From a virus: a stretch of 64,000 nt of DNA. The stretch spans positions 32,001 to 96,000 of the IMG/VR virus record IMGVR_UViG_3300045988_151707, one strand, 5' to 3'. The translations under genes were made by a program, and so were the position numbers. A model generated the notes under the pieces. The model was not told the DNA's origin. It did not search any database and was given only the letters and a program-made list of their open reading frames with translations. This document shows positions 11,636 through 43,129 of the stretch, in pieces. The first letter of the stretch is position 1; each line of letters opens with the position of its first letter.

Positions 11636-11678
11636 CAAAGTTAGGCACCCGAAATGTGGAAATGAAGGACAAAAAAAC
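11636..11678 (-). promoter_or_regulatory. late promoter copy 1 (TTTTTTTGTCCTTC-N-TAACTTTG)
   Basis: Minus strand reads GTTTTTTTGTCCTTCA, with 26 nt between the TTTG and the TAACTTTG box. The leader AAACAAACACAAAGAC precedes the ATG. Confidence 0.7.
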
Positions 11679-11705
11679 GGTGTCCGTCAGTTCAACGGAC
11701 ACCGT
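11677..11705 (-). terminator. rho-independent terminator whose U-tract is the T-run of late promoter 1
   Basis: 11-bp stem ACGGTGTCCGT/ACGGACACCGT with a 7-nt loop. On the minus strand it is followed by TTTTTTT. Confidence 0.6.
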
Positions 11706-11720
11706 TTTAAAACTATTCGC

Positions 11721-11791
11721 CAGCAACCTCTCAAGTGGTTTGCGGCAAACCTCTCGAGCGATATGCAGCAAACCACTTGAGAGGTTTGCTG
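11721..11791. repeat. long inverted repeat (about 22-bp arms, about 24-nt loop containing a third partial copy)
   Basis: CAGCAACCTCTCAAGTGGTTTGC pairs with GCAAACCACTTGAGAGGTTTGCTG. The loop carries GCAAACCTCTCGAG. Confidence 0.6.
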
Positions 11792-11864
11792 CATTTGTTT
11801 TGACAGGCCCTACAGGCTATTGTGGAGGGGGTGGTAAGTGGCGAAAGGGAAGAATGTTCGTATA

Positions 11865-12374
11865 TTACAATAATCCATTAACCATCACTTCCGCATACAC
11901 CATCCCGAACGCTATCACCTCCGCCCAGAACAGCGGTTTGCACAACACGAAGCTATACCATAAATCGCCATTCCATACTTGTTTCAAGCGTACACCGACA
12001 TATAATGCCCACGCAATCCACACAAGCAGAAGACACGGACAGGTAAGTGCTATCCATATCTGACTGTTGAGCGCAGCTATCGTGGTAGCGACGATGTGTA
12101 CAGGCCGGTCCATCCCGGCTTTGAAATTGGGTGCCGCACCCACGAATAGTAACGCTCCGCACATCAGAAATGCGGTGAACTGATAATTTTCGGGGGTAGC
12201 AGATAGGAGGGTGGGCATGAGCAGTAGGGATGTTGCGGTCATGGTGAAGCCGAACCACAGCTTATGTTTCAACGAATAGTATGTGTCGCTGATGGAATAT
12301 GGTATTCCGTTGCGTTTCACCATCACCCCCACGTATGTGAGGATGACAGCTATTGATAAGAGTATGAGTATCAT
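11865..12374 (-). CDS. multi-pass membrane protein
   Basis: 169-aa ORF that is almost entirely hydrophobic helices. Its start overlaps the upstream stop (ATGA-type coupling). Confidence 0.55.
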   Translation of the reverse strand: MILILLSIAVILTYVGVMVKRNGIPYSISDTYYSLKHKLWFGFTMTATSLLLMPTLLSATPENYQFTAFLMCGALLFVGAAPNFKAGMDRPVHIVATTIAALNSQIWIALTCPCLLLVWIAWALYVGVRLKQVWNGDLWYSFVLCKPLFWAEVIAFGMVYAEVMVNGLL

Positions 12375-12895
12375 TTTGTGTTCAGATTAAGTTTTTCAGG
12401 ATATCCGGTTGTGTGGTCGTAGGCTTCCACTTCTTTCACGCTTTGCAGGGCTTCCACATTCGCCTTGTGTTGTGCCGTTACGTTGTAGCACTGCAGGGCG
12501 TACAGTTCGAGGGCGGAGAGCATCTGTATAGCTGTGTCGCACTCGATGGTGTAGCTTTTGTCTCCGAACCAGAGTGTAGTGGTGAGCATCGAGGCTGCCT
12601 TCTGTATCTGGGTGGAGTTCATCAGTCCTACGCGGGTGTTCTTGTCGAGCCAAACGGATTCGCCGTCGAGAGTGAAGCTGTTTACCGCGTCGCTCGTGTC
12701 GTAGCTTTCTATCTCGAATATCTTTGCGGCTTTTTCGGCTCCCAGTTCGTCGGTGGGCAGTTCGCTTACTTCTTTGAACATTTCCTCCATGTCGGAAGGA
12801 AGGCGGTTTGCACGCTTGAAATAGATGTTTGTTCCGATACGATTTATGTACAGACCTTCTGTACTGTAAATCTCTTTTTCTGTAAATTTTATCAT
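12371..12895 (-). CDS. hypothetical phage protein (possibly DUF4376-like)
   Basis: 174-aa ORF. The stretch FTLDGESVWLDKNTRVGL resembles tail-fibre-associated DUF4376 proteins from memory only. Confidence 0.4.
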   Translation of the reverse strand: MIKFTEKEIYSTEGLYINRIGTNIYFKRANRLPSDMEEMFKEVSELPTDELGAEKAAKIFEIESYDTSDAVNSFTLDGESVWLDKNTRVGLMNSTQIQKAASMLTTTLWFGDKSYTIECDTAIQMLSALELYALQCYNVTAQHKANVEALQSVKEVEAYDHTTGYPEKLNLNTK

Positions 12896-13266
12896 AATGT
12901 CACGATTGAGATTGATGGTTTGTTTTTCAGTGCTGACTGGATTTCTTCGTCTTCAATGATTGAGGCATAGTCTTTTGCCGGAAGTGTGAGTGGGATAACG
13001 GAGTTGCTGTCTGTATTCTCGATAAAGAACAGCAGTGCCTCGCGGCTTATGCCGGGTTCTTCGGTTATCGTTCCCCATTCCTGCACTATGCAGGTTTCGT
13101 ATTCGCGATTGATGAAGAAGTCTGCTCCTTCGGGTTTCTCTGTTTCGCAGTATGGCTTGTAGCCTTGTGCGATGATTTCTTCTTCAGCAAGTTTTCCGCC
13201 TACTTCCTGTCCTTTCTCTACTTCTTTGACGAGTAGCTGGTCATTTTCGATTTTTGCGTACTTCAT
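12892..13266 (-). CDS. hypothetical protein (start moved to ATG 13266)
   Basis: The internal Met removes the overlap with the RT 3' end. The protein is acidic and 124 aa long. Confidence 0.45.
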   Translation of the reverse strand: MKYAKIENDQLLVKEVEKGQEVGGKLAEEEIIAQGYKPYCETEKPEGADFFINREYETCIVQEWGTITEEPGISREALLFFIENTDSNSVIPLTLPAKDYASIIEDEEIQSALKNKPSISIVTL

Positions 13267-13303
13267 GTTATCAATGTTTTTAAATGTTGCTATCAGTTGT
13301 CCG

Positions 13304-14776
13304 TTATGCTCGCATATATGCAGGTTCGCGGAGCTGTAGGGGGAGCCTCCTTTTCGGATAGTACCTTTCCGGCGGTCTGAATATGGAAGCATAGTCGTTC
13401 AGGTTTAGATATGATGTCTTGTTTGGTTTGTATTTGCTTTTCAGCACACAGACGAAGCTGCCGTTCTTGTTGCGGAAATACAGCCATTCGGAAAATGTTT
13501 CCAAAGCTTTCTTTGCTATGCGCTTTTTGATGTTGAAGGATGCTGTTCCTTTCATCAGACCGAAATAGCTGTTTATGCTTTGCATGACGTGTACGGCGTT
13601 ATCGTACGACGGCATCCGGCTGTATTCTTCTATCGCTGTATGAAGGGCGTGTACTGTGCGGTTGGATATGTAGATACGGTTCAGCTTTACTACTTTTCCG
13701 CAGAACTTTACTCCGTGTGAGGCCGGCTGTATGTAGAATTTATCGGGATGGACTTTTAGTTTCAGCCGTCCGGTCGCTTTTATGAATACTTTCCGGGCAT
13801 GGATTATTTCGGCTGCTGTTTCTGCCACCACGCATATATCATCTACAAACCGTGTGTATCTCACTCCGGCTTTTATCATTTCCGCATCAGCTTCCGCCAT
13901 GACGAGGTTTGCGAGGAGTTGGGAATAGAAGTTTCCTATCGGGAGTCCTTTATCGGGTGGAAGTCCGAAAAGGCTTTTGTTGGGCGGAACTTTATCCCAC
14001 ATTTTTATATCGGAGCGTCGCTCGCAGTCTGTGGCCGGATTGTGCTGTATCAGGGTGTGAAGCAGGGAGAGTTTTTCTTCCTTATCGGGTTTATCGTAAT
14101 ACATATCGGCGTATTTCCGAAAGATGCGGTATGCTGTTTCCTTGTCTATCGACATAAAGAAGCCTGATATATCCATTGTGGCCACAAAGGCTTTCTTTGT
14201 GTAACCGTCCGTTACATCACGAATATTCCGCTGTATCTGCTCGATGGCTGTAGATGCGGAATGCCCGATACGGTTGCCGTGGCTTACATCACCATTGGCT
14301 TCGTGGACTTTCTCGCATATCTCGCCAAGCATCGGAGCGACGTAGTGGTGCACGATACGGTCGGTGTAGTTAGCTGCAAACACTTCTCTATATACAGGAT
14401 AGTCGAGGACAAAACAGATGCTTGTCTGTGGCTGGTAGCCGTTGTCTATTCTGTTTATCAATTCATAAATACGCGACAGGTTGAAATGAAACGATGCTGC
14501 TTCGAGCGATGCGTGCTTGTTTTTGTAACAGTCACTTTCGGCAGCTATCCAGGCGGGCACTTTTTCTGATAAATCGGAGGCCGGCACCACGCTATAGGTG
14601 TTGTTCGTGTTGTTGTTGTTCAAGTTGCCATTTCCCATGTTCACATACCAGGCGTTGTTGCCATTGTTGCGGACACAGCTCCAGACGTTGCCGCCCAGGA
14701 CTTCTGCCCTGTTAATCGAAATAGCTTGCTCACCGCAAGCACAGGGACCTTTATCATTAAACAGTTCTGCCGACAT
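13304..14776 (-). CDS. DGR reverse transcriptase (the ORF as drawn includes the TR in frame; a GTG at 14560 is an alternative start)
   Basis: Motifs seen: REVFAANYTDRIVHH (motif 1/2), LPIGNFYSQLLANL (the DGR-type IGxxxSQ signature) and FVDD (YxDD box). It lies directly downstream of the TR. Confidence 0.9.
   Translation of the reverse strand: MSAELFNDKGPCACGEQAISINRAEVLGGNVWSCVRNNGNNAWYVNMGNGNLNNNNTNNTYSVVPASDLSEKVPAWIAAESDCYKNKHASLEAASFHFNLSRIYELINRIDNGYQPQTSICFVLDYPVYREVFAANYTDRIVHHYVAPMLGEICEKVHEANGDVSHGNRIGHSASTAIEQIQRNIRDVTDGYTKKAFVATMDISGFFMSIDKETAYRIFRKYADMYYDKPDKEEKLSLLHTLIQHNPATDCERRSDIKMWDKVPPNKSLFGLPPDKGLPIGNFYSQLLANLVMAEADAEMIKAGVRYTRFVDDICVVAETAAEIIHARKVFIKATGRLKLKVHPDKFYIQPASHGVKFCGKVVKLNRIYISNRTVHALHTAIEEYSRMPSYDNAVHVMQSINSYFGLMKGTASFNIKKRIAKKALETFSEWLYFRNKNGSFVCVLKSKYKPNKTSYLNLNDYASIFRPPERYYPKRRLPLQLREPAYMRA
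14575..14701 (-). repeat. DGR template repeat (TR), 127 nt
   Basis: Gapless alignment to 15219-15345. All 15 mismatches are A in the TR on the coding strand. It translates as an Asn (AAY)-rich peptide. Confidence 0.92.
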
Positions 14777-14779
14777 AGT

Positions 14780-15133
14780 TCAAGACTTTTCGGATCTGAC
14801 ATTCTTTATCCTCGCAAGCGAAGATAAAATATTATCGCACAAAACGTCTATTACAGACGCTTTCTCTTTGCTGCATCCTCCAAGAGCCACTATCAAGTAT
14901 ATCCCGAACTGCAACTCGTATGTCAGTTCTGTAGCTCTTTTATAATAGTCCATTCCACGGACCTGGCGCATAGCGTAGATGAAGAGTAATGCGCCTTGCT
15001 TCAGCATAGGATCTATATATGTTCTGCTTATGACCTTATAAGCTTTGCTGTTGATTTCTATGAGACAATTATTCAGGCGTATCACATCCTGAATAATCGG
15101 TGCGTCCAAATGTTTCCTCCCGGATCTGTTCAT
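14780..15133 (-). CDS. avd: accessory variability determinant (Avd)-like helical protein
   Basis: 117-aa helix-rich ORF in the canonical position between target gene and TR. Its stop is 3 nt from the RT-ORF ATG. The call is positional rather than motif-based. Confidence 0.55.
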   Translation of the reverse strand: MNRSGRKHLDAPIIQDVIRLNNCLIEINSKAYKVISRTYIDPMLKQGALLFIYAMRQVRGMDYYKRATELTYELQFGIYLIVALGGCSKEKASVIDVLCDNILSSLARIKNVRSEKS

Positions 15134-15183
15134 TTCTATTGTCGCGTATTAAATGTTAATATATTTTAATGCAAAAGTTAATG

Positions 15184-15202
15184 AGCCGTGCTCCGCACGG
15201 CT
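15184..15202 (-). promoter_or_regulatory. GC-rich hairpin 3' of the VR (DGR target-recognition hairpin/cruciform candidate)
   Basis: AGCCGTGC-TCC-GCACGGCT, an 8-bp stem that ends 17 nt beyond the VR 3' end. Confidence 0.55.
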
Positions 15203-15210
15203 GAGATAAA

Positions 15211-16629
15211 TCAAAAAGCGGAGGCCGGCACCACGCTACAGGTGCCGTACGCGTTGCCGTAGTACAAGGTGCCATTACCCATGTGCACATACCAGGCGTA
15301 GTTGCCACTGTAGCGGACACAGCTCCAGACGTTGCCGCCCAGGACGCCAGGTATGCCCCATTTTTCATAACTGTTAAGATAGTTTATCAATCCTGAAATT
15401 ATGCTTTTGTTTGTCCAGTATGGATATAATTCTTTCTCTCCTGCCATATACTTCCCTTCAAGTGTTTTGATGTAATACACAGCATGAGAGTCCGCCATAT
15501 TCCATTCGTAATTTGTACTGGAATTTCCCGGTCTGCTTATGTATGGGGTAATGATATACCAATAACCGTCAACGGTTATGGCTTCCGCTCCTTTTGCGCC
15601 CGGAGAAAGAAGAGGTCGTTCGGCGGAGTTTACTCCGGTGTCGTTCATGTTTACACCGTTTGTTTTCTGCTGTTCGTACAGCCATTCAGCGTATTCAGGT
15701 TTAAAATAATATGCGTTGTTTACTGAATACTTATTATTTGTATTGTACATTGCTTTCAAACCTGTGTTCTGGCCGTTTACGAAGAAAAACATATCTTCAC
15801 CTAACTGAGCCTGTACGCCTGATGAATTTAGGATTTCCACATCGGTTATTGTGCCTTCTGCTTCAGAAGATGTTATGCCGCTACAGATGGCAAACCTGTG
15901 GCGAAGCCATTCATTCTGTACATACATGGATTCAAGACGTTCGGCGTAATTATCCGCTATCATAGCATTTACATTACCGCAATTCTTTTCCATTATCCAG
16001 CGTTGCTTGGTATTACCGCTATAAAGTTCAAGCTTGTCGTCTTCCGTTACGGTTACGCTCCAGTCGGCTGCGAAGTGACTTCCTGCAGCATGGGTGCCAA
16101 GGTTCTCATCTATGGTTCCATGATAGTCTGTTCCTTCTCCTGTTCCGGTTCTCTGATCGTATTCATAAACGGAATGCTGCATTGCGTTTGATGCTTTGCT
16201 TGTAGTACCGGACGTGGCGTAATATTCTCCCTGCCACGGCCAATACAATATCGTTCTTATCCCGTTGCACTCCAAAGAGAATCCTACCGGAGGAGCAATG
16301 AGTTCGTTGTCGAAGCCGTTGGCCACGCTGCGCTCGTTCCATTCTTTTACCGTGTAATGCTTCAGGTCTGCATCTACAATCTTGATATGGTCGTTTGTAG
16401 CTACGGCTTCCGTCTTGCCTTCTTTTGTTGTGATGGCAGTGGAGCGTACCGGCAGTATCAGCATTTGCGATTCAAAGGCGTATTCATCCCCTGTCGGAAT
16501 GGCTGCTATTTTAGCCGGATATTCGGAAAGGATTTCTCCTACATTTTCTACACCCTTTGCTTCAATGGCTGCCTTTATGGCGGCTTTGCTTTCTTTTAAC
16601 TTGTTTAGTTTGTCTGCTGTCGTTCCCAT
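15211..16629 (-). CDS. DGR target (variable) protein; tail-fibre/receptor-binding candidate with a C-terminal variable domain
   Basis: 472 aa. The last ~42 codons are the VR (VLGGNVWSCVRYSGNYAWYVHMGNGTLYYGNAYGTCSVVPASAF). The N-terminus is fibre-like (KLNKLKESKAAIKAAIEAKG). The gene is translationally coupled to the upstream coiled-coil gene. Confidence 0.85.
   Translation of the reverse strand: MGTTADKLNKLKESKAAIKAAIEAKGVENVGEILSEYPAKIAAIPTGDEYAFESQMLILPVRSTAITTKEGKTEAVATNDHIKIVDADLKHYTVKEWNERSVANGFDNELIAPPVGFSLECNGIRTILYWPWQGEYYATSGTTSKASNAMQHSVYEYDQRTGTGEGTDYHGTIDENLGTHAAGSHFAADWSVTVTEDDKLELYSGNTKQRWIMEKNCGNVNAMIADNYAERLESMYVQNEWLRHRFAICSGITSSEAEGTITDVEILNSSGVQAQLGEDMFFFVNGQNTGLKAMYNTNNKYSVNNAYYFKPEYAEWLYEQQKTNGVNMNDTGVNSAERPLLSPGAKGAEAITVDGYWYIITPYISRPGNSSTNYEWNMADSHAVYYIKTLEGKYMAGEKELYPYWTNKSIISGLINYLNSYEKWGIPGVLGGNVWSCVRYSGNYAWYVHMGNGTLYYGNAYGTCSVVPASAF
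15219..15345 (-). repeat. DGR variable repeat (VR), 127 nt
   Basis: 112/127 identical to the TR. Every difference falls at a TR adenine. The conserved 3' GC-rich end CGTGGTGCCGGCCTCCG is IMH-like. Confidence 0.92.
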
Positions 16630-16880
16630 TATATCACCTCCCCGTTTATTTCATCAAGTACTGTGTTTATATCTCCTATAGCATTGCTTAAATCCTGAGA
16701 GGTGGCGTACCCTTTCTGCGCAAGAGTTTCTTCTGTTACATATCCTTCAGGAACTTGCTTTAAAGAAGAATTTACTCCATCAACGAGTTCGTCTATCTTC
16801 TTCGTTATAGCGTTCATTTCATCAGACTGCAACACCTGCTCTCTGGTGAATGTTTTATTTAATTTCTGAATATCTGCCAT
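16629..16880 (-). CDS. small coiled-coil fibre-associated protein
   Basis: 83-aa helical ORF whose stop overlaps the start of the DGR target gene. Confidence 0.5.
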   Translation of the reverse strand: MADIQKLNKTFTREQVLQSDEMNAITKKIDELVDGVNSSLKQVPEGYVTEETLAQKGYATSQDLSNAIGDINTVLDEINGEVI

Positions 16881-17023
16881 GGCATATTATTTTAATTTGT
16901 TTACATCGAGCTTTCCTTTGTCGAGTACGAGGTATTTTTCTTCAGGAGGAGATATATGCTTTTTCTTCTTAATCTCACAGAATCTATACGTCAAAAGCTT
17001 AAACGTATTTAGCTTAATAGGTT

Positions 17024-17305
17024 TCATGATCCTGCCTCCCTTATGGTTGCTTTTGTAACTTTACTTGATACAACAATTTTAATATACTTAGGATAGACCG
17101 CATGACAAAAATCTGCATCTATTACGTCCCCCCACTTTAGTTCAATATATGAACGCCTATACTTTCCTTCATCACTTCCCCTTTGATAAATCTCCAATGT
17201 TCCTCCACTCTCCATTTCGATATGAAGATTATAGTCTGAGTTTACTTTTGTTTCTGATACAAATGATTTGCCTTCCTCATTAAATAATAATTCTCTCTGT
17301 TCCAT
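17024..17305 (-). CDS. hypothetical protein (start at ATG 17305)
   Basis: First ORF after late promoter 2. The ORF-track start at 17323 falls inside the -7 box. Confidence 0.5.
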   Translation of the reverse strand: MEQRELLFNEEGKSFVSETKVNSDYNLHIEMESGGTLEIYQRGSDEGKYRRSYIELKWGDVIDADFCHAVYPKYIKIVVSSKVTKATIREAGS

Positions 17306-17320: not shown

Positions 17321-17363
17321 CAAAAATAAGTAACATACACAAAAATAAGAAGGACAAAAAAAC
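17321..17363 (-). promoter_or_regulatory. late promoter copy 2 (TTTTTTTGTCCTTC-N-TATTTTTG)
   Basis: Same invariant core and the same 26-nt spacing as the other five copies. Confidence 0.65.
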
Positions 17364-18415: not shown

Positions 18416-18964
18416 TTACATGGCTGCCGGCTCTCCGTACATGCGCTTCTTGAAGTAACGGCGCACCTGAAAGTTCATATCTTTGTCCTTAAGATAGGAA
18501 ACGGCCTTTTTGTAACATGAAAGAGCCATCTTTTCATTCGGTACTTCCGATGGCTTCTTGAAGCCCATATCCTCTGCAATACTGTAAGCCATGTCGCTGT
18601 AAATCATGTTTGCTGTAACACAGAGCGCATACGAATTGTAGAACGGTTTTTCTTCAGGAATACCTCCTAGCTGCTTCACCGCAGAAACAAATGTGTCGTG
18701 ACCCCAGTGGAATCCCTGAACACCGTCTTCATTTATCATTGTTTTCCCAATGTTTACGGCTTCACTTTCGTCCAGGTAATTATTCCACTCTGTTGCTTCG
18801 AGGTGCGCCAGCCAGTTTCTTGCCATCTCCGGATGCACCTTTGCCAACTCGCGGAACATGTATTTTTCGGCTTCCCCGAAAATCTTCATATTTTTCACAT
18901 CCTTGCTTTCTTTCATCAAGGCGTACAGATAATTGTATCTGTCTATCATTTGTTCGGTTGTCAT
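18416..18964 (-). CDS. hypothetical protein (start at ATG 18964)
   Basis: 182-aa ORF with no recognised motif. Confidence 0.5.
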   Translation of the reverse strand: MTTEQMIDRYNYLYALMKESKDVKNMKIFGEAEKYMFRELAKVHPEMARNWLAHLEATEWNNYLDESEAVNIGKTMINEDGVQGFHWGHDTFVSAVKQLGGIPEEKPFYNSYALCVTANMIYSDMAYSIAEDMGFKKPSEVPNEKMALSCYKKAVSYLKDKDMNFQVRRYFKKRMYGEPAAM

Positions 18965-19111
18965 GTCTATTTGTTTTAAATTAGTTTCTCCAAAACTTCC
19001 CGCCCTCGCGGACGGGAAGCCACTCAAACATTTTTCCTTTTCCTTCGCTTTTTTACGGGTTCATCGGCGGATGCCAGACTGAAAGCGCTAAACGCGGCTG
19101 CCTGAACTTCG

Positions 19112-19528
19112 TTAAGCGGGAAAGGTAGCAGTAATCGTGACCGGGACTGCAATCAGTGCGCCGCAAGCAGAGCAACCGCAACCGTTCTCATTGTAAGAGA
19201 ATACCTGCGGAACTAAAGCTGTAGCTACCACACTGGTAGGGGCTGTATTTGCCGCACCGATGAAGGTTACTGTAAACTGTTCGGTCCACTGAATAGTCTT
19301 TGCTGCACATCCGTTTTTCGGAGTGTAGGTCAGAGTTACAGCTGCGTTGATAAGCGCAATGTTCTGCGTGTTGTTGTTTGTGACGCTTGCTACACTGAAT
19401 ACGACGGTAGCAGTAGGTTGAACGCCGTTGTTCACGCAATAAGCCTGACGCAGTTTCTTAGTGATGTTTACCGTCAGTGGCTGAGCGGTAGCTGTCGGAA
19501 CTCCAGACAAAGTAATTGACTGAATCAT
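19112..19528 (-). CDS. hypothetical beta-rich structural-like protein with a Cys cluster (GCGCSACG)
   Basis: 138-aa ORF rich in T/V/A, preceded by an A/C-rich leader. Confidence 0.45.
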   Translation of the reverse strand: MIQSITLSGVPTATAQPLTVNITKKLRQAYCVNNGVQPTATVVFSVASVTNNNTQNIALINAAVTLTYTPKNGCAAKTIQWTEQFTVTFIGAANTAPTSVVATALVPQVFSYNENGCGCSACGALIAVPVTITATFPA

Positions 19529-19589
19529 AGTTGTGTTGTGTTTGTGTTATATATCTTTTACAGGACACCAGGCCGCCTGTATTCGGCAC

Positions 19590-20087
19590 TTATTTCTCTT
19601 CTTTTTCTCGTGTTTCATTCTTTGGTGCAGGCTGCGGTTGTGGGTGCGACGGCTGTGCGGGCTGCTGCGGAACCTTCACCACATATTCCTCGGGTTTCTG
19701 ATACGGAAGGTTGCAGTCCAGGTATTTCTTCAGTTCCACCAGGTCATCGCGGTCAAAAGTGAAGAATCCGTCGATAACAGATAGCTTCCCCTGCTGGATG
19801 GCAGAATCTACATAACCATGAGCCAGTTCCGGGATCATGTCGTCCGGAATGCGGGACACAAATCGTTCAAGGAACGGACGGATCATTTTTGTCCCTCCTA
19901 AAGATGCCAGCGAATTGATTTCATTGGAAATCTGCCATCCGGGGCCTGCGAGTCCGATTGACTTGAATAACTTCTCCACCGGAAGCATACCGGCAGAAAT
20001 ACCGTTGAGCGTATTGCCCATCATAACCGGAATGACCGGCTCACCCCATTTCAGGATGACAGCGGTCAGAATCTGTGCGTTTGTCAT
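19590..20087 (-). CDS. hypothetical protein with a Pro/Gln-rich C-terminal tail
   Basis: 165-aa ORF. Confidence 0.5.
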   Translation of the reverse strand: MTNAQILTAVILKWGEPVIPVMMGNTLNGISAGMLPVEKLFKSIGLAGPGWQISNEINSLASLGGTKMIRPFLERFVSRIPDDMIPELAHGYVDSAIQQGKLSVIDGFFTFDRDDLVELKKYLDCNLPYQKPEEYVVKVPQQPAQPSHPQPQPAPKNETREKEEK

Positions 20088-20176
20088 TGTGCTGCGTGTT
20101 TGAGTTTTTTCTACAGTGCTTGAAAATCAAAAGGAAGGGGAAGACCGGACGGTCCTCCCCCGGGGCCAGTTTGGGG

Positions 20177-20689
20177 TTACTGGGCAGACGGACATCCGCA
20201 GCATCCATCCTGACATACGTTGCTTGACGGAATGTATGTCTTAGTGATAGCCTGCAAAGCGGCGATGCTGTTCTGCATGCACTGCAGAGCAGCGGTGTTG
20301 GTACCGTTGTAAACGGCCTGCTGCATGTTGACAGCTGTCTGAGCGTCTTTGTTGGAACGAACTTCCACTGCAAGTTCCTTGATCTGACCCTGCAAGTCTT
20401 TGTAGGCTTCCACAATCTTCTGATCAGTGTACTTGTCAGCCTTCAGCAAAGCGATTTCTGAATCCTTTGCATTCAGTTGTTCCACCATGTTCAACTCATA
20501 ACGGCTTACGGGCATGTTGTCTGAGCATACGCCTTCTGCGTTCCATCCCCAGCCATTGCGACCCAGGATGTTACCACCGTTGATACCCAAAAATGATGCG
20601 ATGCCTGCTGCTGCACCCACAGTGTTGAAATTACCTTGTCCCTGGCCGGTTACGTTGTAACTCTGGCCATCCATACCTTTGATTGTCAT
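20177..20689 (-). CDS. hypothetical coiled-coil protein with C-terminal CQDGCCGC cluster (start at ATG 20689)
   Basis: The internal Met is preceded by the A/C-rich leader CACAACACAAACAAAAAACAGT. A palindromic GC hairpin terminator follows at about 20131-20160. Confidence 0.5.
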   Translation of the reverse strand: MTIKGMDGQSYNVTGQGQGNFNTVGAAAGIASFLGINGGNILGRNGWGWNAEGVCSDNMPVSRYELNMVEQLNAKDSEIALLKADKYTDQKIVEAYKDLQGQIKELAVEVRSNKDAQTAVNMQQAVYNGTNTAALQCMQNSIAALQAITKTYIPSSNVCQDGCCGCPSAQ

Positions 20690-20753
20690 ACTGTTTTTTG
20701 TTTGTGTTGTGCCGTGAACTATTTCCCGACATGACAAAGGTACGGACGAAGCA

Positions 20754-21059
20754 TTACTCTGGGAATGAGTTATTTCCTAACCTCTTCCTGATTCTTTCGC
20801 AACTTATTCTGAATATTTTCTGTGTGCTGAGACGCTGGTCGAAATTGGTATGAATCTGGTTGACGGCACGCTCCGTCTTTCCGATTCTTGCAGCGATATA
20901 CGACGGATTCAATCCGCTCTGAAAAAGGAAATGCACCAGCAGATAGCGTGCATCTACCGTCTCTGTGTCCTTCCTTCCGGAAAGAATCTGTGCGGACGGT
21001 ATTTCCGTTTCCTCCGATACCATGCGGAGGATGGTGTTAAAAATCTCACTCTTGCTCAT
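20754..21059 (-). CDS. DnaA-domain-IV-like HTH protein (candidate late-gene regulator)
   Basis: VDARYLLVHFLFQSGLNPSYIAARIGKTERAVNQIHTNF follows the DnaA C-terminal HTH pattern (R..a.yL....t..S...Ig......tV.h). Confidence 0.45.
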   Translation of the reverse strand: MSKSEIFNTILRMVSEETEIPSAQILSGRKDTETVDARYLLVHFLFQSGLNPSYIAARIGKTERAVNQIHTNFDQRLSTQKIFRISCERIRKRLGNNSFPE

Positions 21060-21126
21060 CGTTTCTTTGTTTATCTGGACACGTCTGCCCTGTGTTTTCT
21101 CTTGTGTTTAACGAAACAACCTGCCG

Positions 21127-21681
21127 CTACCATTGCAGCAGGTTGTAATTAAGCGTAACGCCCAGAAACGGTTCTGTCTTCCCTGAAAGCCCTATCCCGC
21201 ATCCGGCGCTCAGTCCTATCCCCCACCTCTTTTTTTTCGGTGCCGGTGCATTTACCACCCCCGTCTGTGTGCGGCGGTAAAACTCTGCCGACACCAGTTG
21301 CGGGCGGTACCCTGAAATGACTATCCGGTAGTCGTCCGTGCGGTATTCCTTCTCTGTGAGAGGAATAATCACGTCCACGTTGTCTTTCCCTGTAGAAAGC
21401 GAATCAGAAACAACCGTAACCGTATCCGCTATGCTGTCCGGGATGGAAGCTGGTCCGGACGGTTTCTGCGGACGATATACCGGAAGGCGTGCGGTGTCTG
21501 TTCCTGCGGGACGCTCTGACACGGGAGGAGCAACTGCCGTGTCGCGTATCGTATCTACCCTGACGGGAAGCCATACGGTATCACCCTGCCCAGACTGCGG
21601 CGACGCGCATCCACGGAAGAAAAGCGAAAAGAGGAGCGCGGCCGACAGCAAGCCTACCAGTATCCACGGGAGCTGTTTCAT
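21127..21681 (-). CDS. membrane-anchored lysis-cassette protein (spanin-like candidate)
   Basis: N-terminal TM/lipobox-like LFSLFFRGC, a Pro-rich linker and a C-terminal Gly-rich beta segment. It overlaps the amidase stop. Confidence 0.45.
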   Translation of the reverse strand: MKQLPWILVGLLSAALLFSLFFRGCASPQSGQGDTVWLPVRVDTIRDTAVAPPVSERPAGTDTARLPVYRPQKPSGPASIPDSIADTVTVVSDSLSTGKDNVDVIIPLTEKEYRTDDYRIVISGYRPQLVSAEFYRRTQTGVVNAPAPKKKRWGIGLSAGCGIGLSGKTEPFLGVTLNYNLLQW

Positions 21682-22250
21682 ACGCCAAGGTATTTACAGA
21701 TTCCCTGCACATGCAGCGTGACAATCTTCTGTCGGCCTTCATCCGACAGAAGGAAGTCCACATCTTCGCGATTGTCCTGGAAAAGGTTTTCCGTCAGCAC
21801 AGCCGGGCAAATGGTATGCTTCAGAATGCAGAAACCGCTTTCCTTGTCGCTGTCGCCGTCGGCGGTGTCCTTACGAATCTTCATTCCTTTCAGCACCTGC
21901 TCTGCACTCTGATACAGACATTCGGCCAGTTTGTCGGCCTTGGTCTGACCTACGCTGGTCCATGCCTCCCATCCGCGTGCGGTCATCCACTGCGTGCCGC
22001 TTCCGGCAGCGTTGCAATGGACGGATACCAGGATGCTGTCTTTCACCCGGTTGGCGCGTGCGCACCGTTCCTGAAGCGAAATGTCTTCCTCTTCCGGAAC
22101 GAGCAGCTGCGCGTCCAGCCCTTTCTTCTTTAGCGCATCTACCACGCGGCGTGCAATGTCGCGTGCATAGGCATATTCGCGCAACCGTCCGTCGGGCGAC
22201 TGCTTCCCTTTGGTGTCTGCACCATGACCGTTATCAATCCAGATTTTCAT
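21678..22250 (-). CDS. N-acetylmuramoyl-L-alanine amidase (Amidase_3-type endolysin)
   Basis: WIDNGHG...E, SVHCNA and PAVLTENLFQDN match the zinc amidase_3 motifs. Confidence 0.8.
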   Translation of the reverse strand: MKIWIDNGHGADTKGKQSPDGRLREYAYARDIARRVVDALKKKGLDAQLLVPEEEDISLQERCARANRVKDSILVSVHCNAAGSGTQWMTARGWEAWTSVGQTKADKLAECLYQSAEQVLKGMKIRKDTADGDSDKESGFCILKHTICPAVLTENLFQDNREDVDFLLSDEGRQKIVTLHVQGICKYLGV

Positions 22251-22286
22251 GTCGTGTCTAGTTTAGTTTTTGTGTTGTGACTGTGG

Positions 22287-22862
22287 TTATGCAGAAGCTA
22301 GAACCCCGGCCTTTTCAAGCTCGTCAATCAGCTTGTTCAGTACGGTATGTGCATCTGCCGAACCTGTAGCATCTGTTACATGGGCACCCTGTTTTACCAA
22401 ACCTGGTGTTCCTGATGCGGCATTTGTATAAGTTGTATCAGTCCAGTTTACTGTTACATAGGCTTTCCCGCTGCCATCTACTTTTACAGCATAATTCTTG
22501 CTGTTTTCAGAATAGCCGGTCTGGATTCCTCCCAAAGCAGAGTCGCTGGCTTTCGGGAGCACATAGCTTTCACCTCCGCCGCCACCACCGGCTGCTGCGG
22601 AATCCTTGATAACCAATGCCTTGACTTTTTTCACCTCCACATCGCTCAGAAGCCGTACCTTCATGCCGGCAGGTACATTGATTTCAATTACTGAATTTGT
22701 GAAATTCACCGTATCCATTGCGACGGGTTCCATGGTGTCAATAAACTGGTAGATTGAAAGCCTTCCGCTTTTCACACCCTGAATCTGCACCATTGTACGT
22801 CCTTCGGAAGTATATTCGGCCACATAGCCTTCAGCTCCCTTCTTAAAACTGATTTCGTCCAT
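22287..22862 (-). CDS. virion fibre/decoration-like protein
   Basis: Gly-run linker plus the C-terminal GLVKQGAHVTDATG...LNKLIDELEKAGVLA motif typical of phage head-fibre/fibre tips. Confidence 0.45.
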   Translation of the reverse strand: MDEISFKKGAEGYVAEYTSEGRTMVQIQGVKSGRLSIYQFIDTMEPVAMDTVNFTNSVIEINVPAGMKVRLLSDVEVKKVKALVIKDSAAAGGGGGGESYVLPKASDSALGGIQTGYSENSKNYAVKVDGSGKAYVTVNWTDTTYTNAASGTPGLVKQGAHVTDATGSADAHTVLNKLIDELEKAGVLASA

Positions 22863-22891
22863 TGTTTGTGTTGTGTTTTTGGTTTGTAACT

Positions 22892-23524: not shown

Positions 23525-23548
23525 TCCGTGCCTCCTTCCGATTTCCCA

Positions 23549-23990: not shown

Positions 23991-24033
23991 CAAAGTTACG
24001 AAGAGCACATTGGAGAATGAAGGACAAAAAAAC
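23991..24033 (-). promoter_or_regulatory. late promoter copy 3 (TTTTTTTGTCCTTC-N-TAACTTTG)
   Basis: Invariant core and 26-nt spacing. A degenerate second core (TTTTTGTCCTCC) lies 21 nt upstream. Confidence 0.65.
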
Positions 24034-24060
24034 GACGGTTTCTCGGAGGACAAAAACAAA

Positions 24061-31298: not shown

Positions 31299-31340
31299 CA
31301 AAGTTAGGTATATGACAACTGGGGATGAAGGACAAAAAAT
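31299..31340 (-). promoter_or_regulatory. late promoter copy 4 (TTTTTTGTCCTTC-N-TAACTTTG)
   Basis: Invariant core and 26-nt spacing. The core abuts the stop codon of the upstream gene. Confidence 0.65.
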
Positions 31341-32365
31341 CAGTGCCGGGTAAAGGCTTGCGGACGCATGACGAAGATGGCGTTGTCCTGGTTGTCGTAA
31401 TCGAATATGGGCTGTTTGTCCGGTCCGGTTATTTCAGTGAGCGGCGGCACATACAGCGGAGAATCCTTGATAAACTCTCCGAAAGAATCCTGATGGTTGG
31501 AAATAAATTTGCGTGCCTTTGTCATGGAATAAGCTGCCTCGTTTTCGCTGTACTTTCGCTGTTTTTCCGGACGGCGCGACTCGATGTAGAGTGCCAGCGC
31601 CATGCGCAGACAGTCCACCGCCTTCTGCCACACCGCATTTATGGCATCCTTGTCTTCGCCCGTGAAAAGGTCAGACTTTAGCGAGCGCGTGCACCATTTC
31701 ACCAGCGCATCGGTCAGCTCCTCCCCTATCTCCGGCTCTATGTAGGCGCTCTGGCAATAGCGGATGTCAGGCAACATGGCGATGAACTTCTCCCGGCTTT
31801 CGTTAATATCCAGAAAACGGTTCATCTCGATGGCGGTAGTAAACAGCAAGTCGCCCTGAAGGTAGAAGTAACGGCTTTCGCGCCACAAATCGGCAAACAC
31901 GGGGGCCTGACTGCACGCATCCTCTTCCAGGAATACCAGCAGACGGTCTACTCCGCGACGTCCCTTGAAATACGCATCGCGTTCAAACCGGCTCACGGAT
32001 TTCTCGTCGGCCTTGTCGTACCCGTCGGTGTACACCTGATTCAGTCCACCTCCGTCGTTCAGACTCACCGTGAGAATGCCGGTGCTGTTGGCCAGCGACA
32101 AGTAGACCACCGGAAGCTGACAGGCACGTATCAGACGGATTTCGGGTGTAAGGTTTTCTTTTTCCACGTAGGCCGCCGTCACTCCGCCATACTCTTCCAT
32201 GGCCTTATCGTATTCTTCGCATACCTTTTCGTAGAGTTTCCGCCCAAGTATCGGCACAAGAATGTTCTCTTCTGTCTCTTCCATGATTGTGAGAAGTGAC
32301 TGGTCGCCGCTGTACACGCTGGTGGGCACGTATGCCCTGATTTCTTCGGTTTTCGTTACTAGCAT
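31340..32365 (-). CDS. head-tail connector/adaptor-like protein (start at ATG 32365)
   Basis: The N-terminal pattern LLTIMEETEENILVPILGRKLYEKV resembles gp6-type connector proteins (weak). The ORF-track start lies inside the -7 box. Confidence 0.4.
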   Translation of the reverse strand: MLVTKTEEIRAYVPTSVYSGDQSLLTIMEETEENILVPILGRKLYEKVCEEYDKAMEEYGGVTAAYVEKENLTPEIRLIRACQLPVVYLSLANSTGILTVSLNDGGGLNQVYTDGYDKADEKSVSRFERDAYFKGRRGVDRLLVFLEEDACSQAPVFADLWRESRYFYLQGDLLFTTAIEMNRFLDINESREKFIAMLPDIRYCQSAYIEPEIGEELTDALVKWCTRSLKSDLFTGEDKDAINAVWQKAVDCLRMALALYIESRRPEKQRKYSENEAAYSMTKARKFISNHQDSFGEFIKDSPLYVPPLTEITGPDKQPIFDYDNQDNAIFVMRPQAFTRH

Positions 32366-32383: not shown

Positions 32384-32425
32384 CAAAGTTAGCGGTCTGA
32401 TTCGGTAGTTTGAAGGACAAAAAAC
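32384..32425 (-). promoter_or_regulatory. late promoter copy 5 (TTTTTTGTCCTTC-N-TAACTTTG)
   Basis: Invariant core, 26-nt spacing, and the leader AAGAAAAACACAAAGACT before the ATG. Confidence 0.65.
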
Positions 32426-40964: not shown

Positions 40965-40988
40965 ATAAACACTTTAGCCAAGATCAAC

Positions 40989-41027
40989 AAAAATCCCGAC
41001 AAATCAGAAGTTTTGCCGGGATTTTTT
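40989..41027. terminator. bidirectional terminator between the plus block and the portal gene
   Basis: AAAATCCCGACAAA ... TTTTGCCGGGATTTT stem with flanking A/T runs. Confidence 0.6.
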
Positions 41028-41066
41028 CTGTGAATAAAACCAAAAAAAGAAGAAGAAAAATGTATG

Positions 41067-42800
41067 TTATAGCGTGGATTCTGTCTCTTCTGTGCCTGTT
41101 GCGCTGCGGTCGAGCGTGGTAAATGTCTGCTGACGGATGACTATTTCTCCATGCTTGTCCCATTTATTGAATGTATAGATATTCTTCAGGAACCGCAGAT
41201 AAATGCGCTGCCGGGTAGAAAGCTGGTTTTGCTTGAGCAACTGCAATTCGCGCTGGTAAGTTCCCCCACTGCTACCGCTTTTACCGGGAACCGCACCAAT
41301 AAGGGCCGGATGCACACCGATGGCAAAGAATATAATGCTGGATATTTCCTCCAACTCGTTTTTCAATTCTATTGAGTTTGCTACCTGCGGCACATCCACA
41401 ATCTCGACCGCATGCTGCATCGTCTTCCCGTCAGGGCCTACAAACGAGTCCAGACAAATAGTTTTCCCGTTGTTCTCACGGCGTTGAAGGAACTCATTCA
41501 CCTTCTTATAGATACTGTCACGTACAGCTTGTTTCGCTTCGGTAGTATCCGCTCCCATTTCATCGAACATCGCACGAAGGTATTCGTTGTTGATGAAAAT
41601 CATTTTACCCCACATGGTCGCATTCTGGCGGGCCATGTGCTTATCAGCCATCAGAGTCGTGGCATAATCGAAGGTCATCGACGGGAAGATACTCCACCAG
41701 GCCGGCTGAGGGTAATAAGGTTTCAGCATAGACGCATAGTAGCTGGGACAGCAGAACCAGGTGGTACGTTTCTTTGGAGGACGGTTCTTACTCTTTTCCA
41801 CCTGACGGCGAAGCTCCGTAAGCATATTTTCAGGCATCAGTGTGGGATAAGCCACCACATCCTTTCTTTCCAGCTTTGGCGTGGCATCCTTTCGCCACTT
41901 CTCCGCATAATACACGTAGTTTATGCGCATCCGTTCGTCCATTTCCTCCATACGGCAGCACACCGCCGGAATGTTTCCTAACTTGACGATTTTCGGGTCC
42001 CACTCTTCGTCCTTCCGTCCGATGCTTAGCCCGATAGTCGGGAAATAAATGTCCATGTGCGCGTCGTCTGTCATGCACTTCAGGTAGTGAAGTTCCAGAT
42101 TGTTATTTTCGCAGAACTTGTCCCATTCCTTGTCGGTCTCTTCCCAGGTGCGATAATCTTCACGAAGCTGCTTCAGCTCGTATTCAGGTGTTCCAACCTG
42201 TGCGGAATCTTTCTTCTCCTCTCCGGAGATGGCCTGCGACCAGGTGATTGTACCTCCCCCACCCTGCTCTTCGCCGCTTTCTGCTTTCTGCTGGTCAATC
42301 TGTGCCTGAATCTCCATGATGCGGTTGCGAATCAGTAGTCCGGCATCCTTGAAGGGAATCAGTTCAGTCTTTACCGTACCGTTTACGTAGCGTGACCAGC
42401 GGTACATAAGCTGCGGCCCGAGCCCTACGGCCAGGTCAATAATATATTTGATGGCGGCCGCCGTGTATGGAAGACTGCCTACCAGCTTGTAGATGGTATT
42501 CGGCAGCATGTTGCCAGGTCCCCATGGAATGTAACCAAGACCGGGTGTCCCGGCATTGCTGACCGGCACCGGGTTTGACTGCCGGCTGTCGAAAATATCA
42601 AACGTGCCCTGAATGGGCAGCCCGCCGATAGCCCCTCCCCCTTTCATCATTTCCGAGGAAGATACAGACGGGATTTCCGACACGAGGGCCGTGCCGATAC
42701 ACTGGTATCCACGGTCTAAGAGTGAAGTCACTTTTCCTCTGAACTCCTTTATTCCCGGGTTGGACTTCTTACGGTTTGTATTTTTTGTGTTTGTCGCCAT
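41067..42800 (-). CDS. portal protein (probable)
   Basis: 577 aa, second gene of a late operon. The C-terminal pattern AIGVHPALIGAVPGKSGSSGGTYQRELQLL...R is like portal stem/clip regions. Judged by eye only. Confidence 0.55.
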   Translation of the reverse strand: MATNTKNTNRKKSNPGIKEFRGKVTSLLDRGYQCIGTALVSEIPSVSSSEMMKGGGAIGGLPIQGTFDIFDSRQSNPVPVSNAGTPGLGYIPWGPGNMLPNTIYKLVGSLPYTAAAIKYIIDLAVGLGPQLMYRWSRYVNGTVKTELIPFKDAGLLIRNRIMEIQAQIDQQKAESGEEQGGGGTITWSQAISGEEKKDSAQVGTPEYELKQLREDYRTWEETDKEWDKFCENNNLELHYLKCMTDDAHMDIYFPTIGLSIGRKDEEWDPKIVKLGNIPAVCCRMEEMDERMRINYVYYAEKWRKDATPKLERKDVVAYPTLMPENMLTELRRQVEKSKNRPPKKRTTWFCCPSYYASMLKPYYPQPAWWSIFPSMTFDYATTLMADKHMARQNATMWGKMIFINNEYLRAMFDEMGADTTEAKQAVRDSIYKKVNEFLQRRENNGKTICLDSFVGPDGKTMQHAVEIVDVPQVANSIELKNELEEISSIIFFAIGVHPALIGAVPGKSGSSGGTYQRELQLLKQNQLSTRQRIYLRFLKNIYTFNKWDKHGEIVIRQQTFTTLDRSATGTEETESTL

Positions 42801-42804
42801 ATAA

Positions 42805-43068
42805 CTACTTAACCAATATCTTTGTGTCGTTAATCTGCAGAATAAGTACGTCGTACACGTAACGGAAATCTCCGTTTGGCATTACCAGTTTACGGTATCC
42901 CTTTTCTCGGTTGTACGAAACGGCACGCTGCACGTTGTAACATTCGCTTATCGTTCCGTCCTTACACACAAAACGTATGTCGAACGGCTTGTTTTTCCCG
43001 TCCGGAGTGCGGGCGTTCATCAGCTTGTACGCCTCCGTCCAGAGCAGACGTTTGGTCGGTTTCTTCAT
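42805..43068 (-). CDS. small basic protein (start at ATG 43068)
   Basis: First ORF after late promoter 6. The ORF-track TTG start lies in the -7 box. Confidence 0.45.
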   Translation of the reverse strand: MKKPTKRLLWTEAYKLMNARTPDGKNKPFDIRFVCKDGTISECYNVQRAVSYNREKGYRKLVMPNGDFRYVYDVLILQINDTKILVK

Positions 43069-43086
43069 CTTTCGTTTGTTTTGGTA

Positions 43087-43129
43087 CAAAGATATACAAG
43101 GTTAATATGGTAATGAAGGACAAAAAAAC
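43087..43129 (-). promoter_or_regulatory. late promoter copy 6 (TTTTTTTGTCCTTC-N-TATCTTTG)
   Basis: Invariant core and 26-nt spacing. Confidence 0.65.

What the first reader, a model, noticed from the sequence alone, without database searches (positions are those of the whole stretch)
11636..43129. Six-copy late promoter with an invariant extended -33 element
**Structure**
- Every minus-strand late operon starts with the same structure, read on the minus strand.
- It consists of an invariant TTTTTTGTCCTTC, exactly 26 nt between its TTTG and the next box, then TA(A/T)(C/T)TTTG.
- An A/C-rich leader of about 15-50 nt follows, then the ATG.

**Copies**
- 11636-11678 (tape measure), 17321-17363, 23991-24033 (lysis), 31299-31340, 32384-32425 and 43087-43129 (portal).

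**Interpretation**
- TTTG/TAnnTTTG is the general Bacteroidetes promoter.
- The extra invariant GTCCTTC and the T-run point to a phage-specific activator or sigma factor controlling a late regulon.
- In several copies the T-run doubles as the U-tract of the preceding terminator.
Basis: partly seen in the sequence, partly recalled or inferred. Interest (0 to 1): 0.65.

Follow-up and report, generated by a model that had tools for sequence, protein, structure and literature searches.

The report
Conserved late-gene promoter of Bacteroidota phages
Six operons for virus-particle, tail, lysis and diversity-generating genes in this roughly 100 kb gut phage start with the same promoter, a normal Bacteroidetes -7 box plus an unusual invariant upstream box, and that box is conserved in distant relatives including a cultured marine phage, so it probably marks a phage-controlled late gene switch that has not been described.

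Summary
Six exact copies of TTTTTTGTCCTTC-N20-TA(A/T)(C/T)TTTG lie on the minus strand. Each sits 15-43 nt upstream of the first ATG of a structural, lysis, DGR or tail operon.

**Conservation**
- In relatives located without using the motif, the 13-mer and the -7 box almost never vary. The spacer, flanks and leaders vary freely.
- The core GTCCTT, at a fixed 21 nt from the -7 box, persists in phages whose proteins are only 20-50% identical.
- A TGTCCTTTT version occurs six times before late genes of the cultured Polaribacter phage Leef_1.
- Across 185,579 species genomes the full pattern looks promoter-like only in phage-like Bacteroidales DNA. A host regulon is therefore unlikely.

- The TTTG inside the T-run is out of register for a -33 element. 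GTCCTTC itself occupies -39..-33.
- The whole genome has at least seven copies. The head operon's copy lies outside the window.
- Only two T-runs directly serve as terminator U-tracts.

**Mechanism and trans factor**
- The most likely mechanism is a host-sigma -7 box combined with a phage-factor-dependent upstream box, similar in logic to T4 MotA or P1 Lpa promoters.
- The factor is not identified. The candidates are a clade-wide 211-aa protein of unknown fold and a LuxR-type protein.

This is a new member of a known kind, of moderate interest.

The parts
11636..11677 (-). Late promoter P11. T7-GTCCTTC at 11664-11677, 20-nt spacer, TAACTTTG at 11636-11643. Predicted start about 11631; ATG at 11615 of the 2154-aa presumed tape measure.
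   Evidence: Orthologous sites in relatives keep the 13-mer and box unchanged.
17321..17362 (-). Late promoter P17. T7-GTCCTTC, N20, TATTTTTG. ATG at 17305 of a 93-aa ORF that heads the operon containing the DGR.
23991..24032 (-). Late promoter P24. T7-GTCCTTC, N20, TAACTTTG. ATG at 23947 of the holin-like gene; the endolysin lies at 21678-22250.
31299..31339 (-). Late promoter P31. T6-GTCCTTC, N20, TAACTTTG. It fills the 60-nt gap between the stop of g35 and the ATG at 31279 of g34, which is followed by a 1019-aa tail-fibre-like protein.
   Evidence: Exact in 28/28 loci found by portal homology.
32384..32424 (-). Late promoter P32. T6-GTCCTTC, N20, TAACTTTG. ATG at 32365 of g35 (341 aa). It is back-to-back with the operator-bearing early promoter on the + strand.
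   Evidence: Core present in 37/38 loci; one relative has a canonical TTTG-N19-TATTTTTG instead.
43087..43128 (-). Late promoter P43. T7-GTCCTTC, N20, TATCTTTG. ATG at 43068 of an 87-aa ORF followed by the portal gene (41067-42800).
   Evidence: Exact in 40/40 loci found by portal homology.
11677..11705 (-). G+C-rich hairpin (-20.4 kcal/mol) whose U-tract is the T-run of P11. It is the terminator of the DGR operon.
43129..43154 (-). G+C-rich hairpin (-20.4 kcal/mol) whose U-tract is the T-run of P43.
24045..24083 (-). Separate terminator hairpin (24064-24083) with its own T-tract, plus a degenerate, poorly conserved extra box GTTTTTGTCCTCC (24045-24057) upstream of P24.
1875..11615 (-). Operon driven by P11: a 2154-aa, a 710-aa and a 373-aa protein (tail module).
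11865..17305 (-). Operon driven by P17. It holds the DGR target gene (15211-16629, VR 15215-15345), a 117-aa accessory ORF, TR 14571-14701, the reverse transcriptase (13304-14776) and a tail-fibre-like ORF.
18416..23947 (-). Operon driven by P24: holin-like gene, endolysin and about nine further small ORFs.
25820..31279 (-). Operon driven by P31: g34, the 1019-aa fibre-like protein and three small ORFs.
31340..32365 (-). Single-gene unit driven by P32 (g35, 341 aa, function unknown).
41067..43068 (-). Operon driven by P43: the 87-aa ORF plus portal.
1..82 (-). First 27 codons of a 211-aa LuxR/GerE-type regulator gene that runs off the window. It is one of two candidate trans factors and the weaker one.

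Best explanation
The six elements form a dedicated class of late promoters of a temperate, probably plasmid-borne, roughly 100 kb Bacteroidales phage.

**Proposed mechanism**
- Host RNA polymerase with the primary Bacteroidetes sigma factor reads the ordinary -7 box (TAnnTTTG, -12..-5).
- The usual -33 contact is replaced by the box T5-7-GTCCTTC(A) at about -45..-33, held exactly 20 nt from the -7 box.
- A phage-encoded DNA-binding factor made from the early operons reads that box and recruits or re-tools the polymerase.
- As a result the portal, g35, tail-fibre, lysis, DGR and tape-measure operons, plus the head operon outside the window, come on together.
- Where an upstream operon ends just before, its terminator hairpin is fused to the T-run. 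This insulates each unit.

**What is shown**
- The sequence, its geometry, its position before late operons and its selective conservation.
- Its restriction to phage-like DNA.

**What is inferred**
- That it acts as a promoter.
- That it needs a phage factor.
- That expression is late.
- The identity of the factor.
For: **Copies and position**
- There are six exact copies with identical spacing, far beyond chance, and their flanks do not align.
- Every copy is intergenic and 15-43 nt upstream of the first ATG of a co-directional block encoding portal, fibre-like protein, holin and endolysin, DGR, and a 2154-aa tail protein.
- Early and DNA-metabolism blocks (methylase, radical SAM, DUF4494, SSB, ParA, Rep) lack the motif.

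**Footprint in relatives found by protein homology, not by motif**
- The exact motif is present in 40/40 (P43), 34/38 (P32) and 28/28 (P31) loci.
- Variable alignment columns: 3/39 in the 13-mer and 2/24 in the -7 box, against 31/60 in the spacer, 58/60 upstream and 23/36 in the leader.

**Conservation of GTCCTT with the same distance to the -7 box**
- Relatives at 70% and 53% portal identity.
- Relatives at 36-52% identity.
- Contigs whose c211 or LuxR homologues are only 21-51% identical.
- A head-operon copy outside the window, present in 33 family loci.
- The cultured Polaribacter phage Leef_1 has six TGTCCTTTT copies, all intergenic before late genes, with none of 100 shuffles reaching six.

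**Other support**
- One relative replaced the box before g35 with a canonical TTTG-N19-TATTTTTG. This is what would be expected if the box substitutes for -33 function.
- In 596 Gb of representative genomes, the full pattern is promoter-like only in about 11 phage-like Bacteroidales contigs. The remaining hits sit inside ORFs of unrelated taxa.
- The -7 box numbering comes from PMC6847099.
Against: - There is no transcription start, timing or binding data of any kind.
- The trans factor is not identified.
- The LuxR-type candidate has a variable recognition helix in lineages that keep the same box.
- The c211 candidate has a confident model (pLDDT 93) but no known fold, and hence no evidence that it binds DNA.
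- Other promoters of this phage also lack a clear TTTG at -33. Baez et al. report that the -33 element is weak in Flavobacterium. Absence of a canonical -33 is therefore not itself proof of activator dependence.
- The major capsid and terminase genes were not located, and about 15 kb of the family genome was not sampled.
Confidence: 0.6

Rival explanations
1. A phage-encoded alternative sigma factor reads both halves. GTCCTTC would be its -35 element and TAACTTTG-like sequences its -10 element, and host primary sigma plays no part.
For: - The spacing is strictly invariant and the upstream element is asymmetric, as is typical of sigma-type bipartite promoters.
- Four of the six boxes are TAACTTTG.
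- A protein just outside the window scores on Sigma70_r4_2 (25.9 bits).
Against: - The downstream element is the general host consensus. It varies within that consensus across copies and lineages (TAAC, TATT, TATC, TAAT, TAAA, TACT).
- The sigma-r4-like protein folds as a LuxR/GerE domain with no sigma-2 domain.
- No sigma family hit was found among about 70 window proteins scanned.
Confidence: 0.12
2. The elements are factor-independent strong promoters. The T-tract would act as an UP-like element and GTCCTTC as a favourable -33-region sequence for host polymerase, and timing is set by something else.
For: - The -33 element is weak in Bacteroidetes, and AT-rich upstream tracts contribute to promoter activity (PMC6847099).
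- Other promoters in the window also lack TTTG at -33.
Against: - If host polymerase favoured this sequence, host genes should use it. The pattern is promoter-like only in phage-like contigs among 185,579 species genomes.
- Seven-base invariance across lineages with 20-50% protein identity exceeds what a generic strength element needs.
- The motif is used only before structural and lysis operons.
Confidence: 0.12
3. The box is an operator for a repressor that silences the late operons during plasmid-prophage carriage, like the dispersed asymmetric C1 operators of phage P1.
For: - The phage has ParA, a Rep protein and a CI/Cro-like divergent pair.
- The box is asymmetric and overlaps the promoter.
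Against: - A separate palindromic operator (ACAATTTTAA-N13-TTAAAATTGT) already marks the early promoters and the putative repressor gene.
- The box is fixed in register with the -7 box to the base pair, which repression does not need.
- Leef_1 and single-copy lineages keep it at late operon starts only.
Confidence: 0.1
4. The element is not transcriptional. It would be a recombination or module-boundary sequence, or merely the tail of intrinsic terminators.
For: - Upstream homology between relatives often breaks exactly at the T-run.
- Hairpins abut the box in two window copies and in many relatives.
Against: - Three of the six copies have no hairpin.
- The fixed 20-nt link to a -7 box and the constant short distance to an ATG are unexplained by this reading.
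- Orientation always matches the downstream genes.
Confidence: 0.04

Closest known systems
Phage T4 middle promoters (MotA box with AsiA sigma appropriation)
   Same: - Keeps the host -10-type element.
- The -35-region element is replaced by an asymmetric conserved box, T/A-rich on its 5' side, at fixed spacing.
- Many copies in one genome define a temporal class.
   Different: - The host element here is the Bacteroidetes -7 box, and the box sequence and position (-45..-33) differ.
- No MotA- or AsiA-like protein was found by Pfam or PHROGs in the proteins scanned.
- Whether sigma region 4 is remodelled is unknown.
Phage P1 late promoters activated by Lpa; Mu C-dependent and P2/P4 Ogr/Delta-dependent late promoters
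   Same: - A handful of late operons (4-11) in a temperate, or for P1 plasmid-prophage, genome.
- Each operon is headed by a promoter with a good -10 and a conserved activator site instead of a usable -35.
- The activator is made from an earlier operon.
   Different: - Those sites are dyad-symmetric and bound by dimers. This box is asymmetric.
- The phylum and promoter grammar differ.
- The activator is not identified here.
Standard Bacteroidetes primary-sigma promoter (-33 TTTG / -7 TAnnTTTG)
   Same: - The -7 box is canonical, including no G at the two n positions.
- Leaders are short, A-rich and lack a Shine-Dalgarno sequence.
   Different: - There is no TTTG 19-21 nt upstream. CTTC sits in that slot, and the nearest TTTG is 26 nt away.
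- An extra 13-nt invariant block is present.
PeSL (promoter-early stem-loop) cassettes of T4-type phages
   Same: A terminator hairpin is fused to a conserved promoter and repeated between gene modules. Homology between relatives breaks at these cassettes.
   Different: - PeSLs carry ordinary early promoters in hyperplastic regions.
- Here only some copies have the hairpin, and the promoters head late structural operons.

Membership tests
Bacteroidetes primary-sigma (sigma-ABfr) promoter | -7 element TAnnTTTG (TAHHTTTG) | tested here: met
   All six copies have TAACTTTG, TATTTTTG or TATCTTTG. The consensus is as given in PMC6847099.
Bacteroidetes primary-sigma (sigma-ABfr) promoter | -33 element TTTG about 19-21 nt upstream of the -7 box | tested here: not met
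   The slot holds CTTC in all six copies, and the TTTG of the T-run is 26 nt away. One relative has a true TTTG-N19 version instead.
Bacteroidetes primary-sigma (sigma-ABfr) promoter | Transcription start about 5 nt downstream of the box's G | not testable with these tools
   No transcript data are available. Predicted starts are 11631, 17316, 23986, 31294, 32379 and 43082.
Activator-dependent phage late/middle promoters (T4 MotA, P1 Lpa, Mu C, P2 Ogr types) | Conserved non-host box at fixed distance from a host-type -10/-7 element, replacing the -35/-33 element | tested here: met
   GTCCTTC lies exactly 20 nt from the box in 6/6 copies and in distant relatives.
Activator-dependent phage late/middle promoters (T4 MotA, P1 Lpa, Mu C, P2 Ogr types) | Copies head the late (structural and lysis) operons and are absent from early operons | tested here: met
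   See the operon map and family scans. The same holds in Leef_1.
Activator-dependent phage late/middle promoters (T4 MotA, P1 Lpa, Mu C, P2 Ogr types) | A cognate phage-encoded activator that binds the box | tested here: inconclusive
   Two clade-wide candidates exist. The first is the c211 family (hhalign 95% between lineages; present in Leef_1; no known fold). The second is a LuxR-type protein whose recognition helix is not conserved. Neither has been shown to bind the box.
Activator-dependent phage late/middle promoters (T4 MotA, P1 Lpa, Mu C, P2 Ogr types) | Activity depends on infection stage | not testable with these tools
   This needs a time-course transcriptome or reporters.
Promoters of a phage-encoded alternative sigma factor | Both promoter elements differ from the host consensus | tested here: not met
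   The downstream element equals the host -7 consensus.
Promoters of a phage-encoded alternative sigma factor | A sigma-2 plus sigma-4 protein is encoded by the phage | tested here: not met
   Only a C-terminal LuxR/GerE domain was found. The model has no sigma-2 domain. About 15 kb of the family genome was not examined.
Intrinsic terminator | G+C-rich hairpin immediately followed by a U-tract | tested here: inconclusive
   Met at two of six copies and nearby at a third; absent at three.

The most novel reading that the evidence does not exclude
The TGTCCTT box is the cis half of a late-transcription switch shared by a wide clade of Bacteroidota siphophages. The clade runs from abundant human-gut roughly 100 kb plasmid-prophages to marine Helgolandviridae. 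The trans half would be the c211 protein family, which has a confidently predicted fold with no match in the PDB and is always encoded two genes upstream of the head operon. Under this reading c211 acts as a new kind of promoter-specificity factor for the unusual Bacteroidetes RNA polymerase.
Probability: 0.25. Interest if true: 0.7.

Novelty: new member of a known kind. Interest (0 to 1): 0.5.

Why it matters
- Almost nothing is known about how phages of Bacteroidota time their gene expression. Their hosts use a promoter grammar unlike that of the model bacteria.
- A simple conserved sequence signature that marks late operon starts gives an annotation handle for very 'dark' gut phage genomes. 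Most proteins here have no family match.
- It also supplies a candidate infection-inducible promoter for Bacteroides engineering.
- It turns 'how do these phages switch to late transcription?' into a testable question. The same box occurs in a cultured phage-host pair, Polaribacter phage Leef_1.
- It also shows that a diversity-generating retroelement is wired into the late regulon.

Tried and rejected
- **Annotated phage collection.** Megablast of 24 kb found nothing. tblastn with g80 and g35 found nothing.
- **Prophage check.** A search for the portal in 185,579 species genomes gave no relative.
- **Literature.** Searches for the sequence, for TAnnTTTG with phage, for Bacteroides late promoter motifs and for DUF4494 turned up nothing relevant.
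- **tRNA scan.** None found.
- **g2 (four HTH repeats) as the late factor.** Rejected because its own promoter region and the early promoters carry a palindromic operator, which makes it the likely immunity repressor.
- **DUF4494 protein as a candidate.** It is 68% identical in a relative whose neighbouring genes are 25-43% identical. It had no PDB hit and its context is DNA metabolism.
- **g49.** It had a weak PHROG 'transcriptional regulator' hit but no PDB support.
- **LuxR-type protein as an ECF sigma.** Rejected on its predicted fold.
- **HU-HIG-like protein.** It carries the box upstream of its own gene. It was noted but not resolved.
- **g58 and the 106-aa pre-portal protein of another lineage.** Similarity seen by eye was not supported by phmmer.
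- **First profile comparison of c211 and c165.** With three sequences each it was insignificant. It became significant only with a 34-sequence profile.
- **Head genes of L293.** They have no homologue in the sampled 84+ kb of the family.

Full report
**1. The observation**

TTTTTTGTCCTTC occurs exactly six times in the window, always on the minus strand. The copies are at 11664, 17349, 24019, 31327, 32412 and 43115. Each is followed by 20 nt and then TAACTTTG, TATTTTTG or TATCTTTG.

An exact 13-mer is expected about 0.002 times in 128 kb. The relaxed composite pattern gave 11 hits against 1.15 expected, and no shuffle of 100 reached that count. An alignment of the six sites shows identity only in the 13-mer and the box. 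They are therefore independent sites, not recent duplications.

**2. Context**

A simple gene map with family scans gives six minus-strand units:

| Promoter | Genes driven | Evidence |
|---|---|---|
| P43 | 87-aa ORF, then portal | |
| P32 | g35 | – |
| P31 | g34, then a 1019-aa fibre-like protein and three small ORFs | |
| P24 | holin-like gene, endolysin and further ORFs | |
| P17 | an operon holding a diversity-generating retroelement | |
| P11 | 2154-aa, 710-aa and 373-aa tail proteins | – |

- The retroelement has TR at 14571-14701 and VR at 15215-15345. All 16 mismatches are at adenines of TR.
- The box sits 15-43 nt from the first ATG in every case.
- Internal gaps of these operons lack the box.
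- So do the plus-strand block at 32.5-40.9 kb, the ParA/Rep region and the minus-strand DNA-metabolism block at 48.6-61.3 kb.
- Strong hairpins directly abut the T-run at P11 and P43 only. P24 has a separate terminator about 30 nt upstream.

**3. Register**

Positions are taken from Flavobacterium promoters (T-12, A-11, T-8, T-7, T-6, G-5; PMC6847099).

- The 20-nt spacer covers -32..-13.
- GTCCTTC covers -39..-33.
- The T-run covers -45..-40.
- A normal -33 TTTG would lie where CTTC lies, so the TTTG at the end of the T-run is about 6 nt out of register.
- The box therefore replaces the -33 element rather than extending it.

Caveat: other promoters of this phage also lack a clear -33 TTTG, and the same paper finds the -33 element weak.

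**4. Relatives**

The window belongs to a family of 85-122 kb IMG/VR contigs from human gut samples. The family is absent from INPHARED at DNA level and from 185,579 species genomes.

In loci fetched by portal homology, so without using the motif:

| Site | Loci with the exact motif |
|---|---|
| P43 | 40/40 |
| P32 | 34/38 (core in 37/38) |
| P31 | 28/28 |

Variable alignment columns in those loci (alignments):

| Region | Variable columns |
|---|---|
| 13-mer | 3/39 |
| -7 box | 2/24 |
| Spacer | 31/60 |
| Upstream flank | 58/60 |
| Leader | 23/36 |

- One relative has swapped the box before g35 for a canonical TTTG-N19-TATTTTTG.
- All 215 family instances map to the six window sites.

**5. 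Distant relatives**

GTCCTT keeps the same distance to the box in the following:

- a 70% portal relative and a 53% portal relative, the latter with TTTTTCTGTCCTTTC-N19;
- roe-deer and Tannerellaceae contigs with 36-52% identity;
- contigs whose LuxR-like or c211 proteins are 21-51% identical.

Walking outside the window revealed a seventh copy, TTTTTTGTGTCCTTCA-N19-TAATTTCG. It lies before the S49-type head protease/scaffold gene and is conserved in 33 loci. A degenerate eighth copy lies before an HU-like gene.

A syntenic lineage (L249 type) has a single copy heading the terminase-portal operon.

The cultured Polaribacter phage Leef_1 has six TGTCCTTTT copies. All are on the coding strand and all are intergenic before late genes (gp02, gp04, gp05/portal, gp13/tape measure, gp41 head protease, gp46). 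Three follow a hairpin and a T-run. The paper describing Leef_1 does not mention promoters or terminators.

**6. Host or phage factor?**

The full pattern gives 94 single hits in 596 Gb. Most lie inside long ORFs of unrelated taxa and are consistent with chance. The promoter-like hits are about 11 Bacteroidales contigs, and their downstream genes are tape-measure-like, holin/lysin or relatives of window genes. With C or G after GTCCTTC, only five viral contigs match.

No host regulon is visible, which argues for a phage-encoded reader.

**7. Candidate readers**

*LuxR/GerE-type protein*
- Window bases 82-1 encode the start of a 211-aa protein with a C-terminal LuxR/GerE domain.
- Its model matches only LuxR-type DNA-binding domains and has no sigma-2 domain.
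- Its recognition helix is conserved only among close relatives. It is variable in the ~50% identity group, whose contigs carry the same box.

*c211 family*
- This is a 211-aa protein encoded two genes upstream of the head-operon promoter, outside the window.
- It has 40 representative clusters.
- It is homologous to the 'c165' proteins of the single-copy lineages (hhalign 95%, E 3e-8).
- It is present in Leef_1 as gp39, in the same synteny.
- Its model is confident (pLDDT 93) but matches nothing in the PDB.

Both families co-occur with the box across the clade. Neither is shown to bind it.

**8. Conclusion**

The finding is real and is best read as a clade-specific late-promoter class that works like activator-dependent phage promoters. 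The concept is well known, but this instance, its grammar in Bacteroidota and its breadth appear undescribed in the searchable literature.

The main uncertainties are the absence of transcript data, the unidentified factor and the roughly 15 kb of unsampled genome.

Noticed in passing
window 535-570, 32450-32487, 61453-61490; partial copy at about 17395-17425: The inverted repeat ACAATTTTAA-N13-TTAAAATTGT (or TTATAATTGT) lies over the upstream part of the early promoters. It also lies between the divergent genes g1 (79-459, Cro-like) and g2 (597-1886, four HTH_26-like repeats plus coiled coil). This is probably the immunity operator set of the phage.
   Followed up: partly
window 13304-16629: A complete diversity-generating retroelement. 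TR is at 14571-14701 and VR at 15215-15345, at the 3' end of the 472-aa target gene. All 16 differences are at TR adenines. A reverse transcriptase and a 117-aa accessory ORF are present. The whole cassette is driven by late promoter P17.
   Followed up: yes
window 43200-48600: A plasmid-like maintenance module: an AT-rich repeat-laden non-coding stretch (43.2-43.97 kb), ParA (44003-44785), an XRE-type HTH (46856-47110) and a 487-aa protein with a DnaA_N-like C-terminus (47117-48580). This suggests a plasmid-prophage lifestyle. The phage was not found integrated in any representative genome.
   Followed up: partly
window 17534-18208 and 24384-25825 (+ strand): Opposite-strand inserts sit between late operons. 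One is a lipoprotein-like 224-aa ORF. The other is an integrase-like ORF (weak Phage_integrase hits, possibly truncated) plus an 84-aa ORF. These are moron-like cargo.
   Followed up: no
window 11700-11800: Nested inverted repeats (GCAGCAAACCTCTCAAGTGGTTTGCTGC / CTCGAGAGGTTTGCCGCAAACCACTTGAGAGG) lie downstream of the last gene of the DGR operon. A similar sequence appears upstream of P31 in some relatives (rows u9 and u12).
   Followed up: no
L337 16534-17169 (outside the window; P0095): The c211 protein family has a confident AlphaFold model (pLDDT 93, pTM 0.86) with no PDB match. It is conserved from gut phages to Polaribacter phage Leef_1 gp39 and is always encoded just upstream of the head genes.
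   Followed up: partly
L337 15550-16530: A roughly 1 kb non-coding stretch lies between the HU-like gene and c211. It is rich in TTTGCAA(A) repeats and could be an origin, a pac site or an RNA gene.
   Followed up: no
L381 (Polaribacter phage Leef_1) 469, 1808, 2475, 10520, 30638, 34590: Six TGTCCTTTT boxes lie before late genes. In three of them only about 39-41 nt separate the box from the ATG, which implies nearly leaderless late mRNAs. The downstream partner looks like nATnTTGC rather than TAnnTTTG.
   Followed up: partly
L293 17380-17918 and L337 14989-15544: An HU-HIG-type DNA-binding protein gene carries the late box upstream of itself. The box is exact in L293 and degenerate (TTTTTAGTCCTTCA-N20-TAGATTTA) in the window's family, where a hairpin sits in the leader.
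   Followed up: partly
window 50874-57805: A cluster of DNA-modification genes: a radical SAM protein, a 571-aa C-5 cytosine methylase, DUF4494 and two DUF1599-type 'nucleotide modification' proteins. A PAPS-reductase-like gene lies at 60027-60875. This suggests a modified phage DNA base.
   Followed up: no
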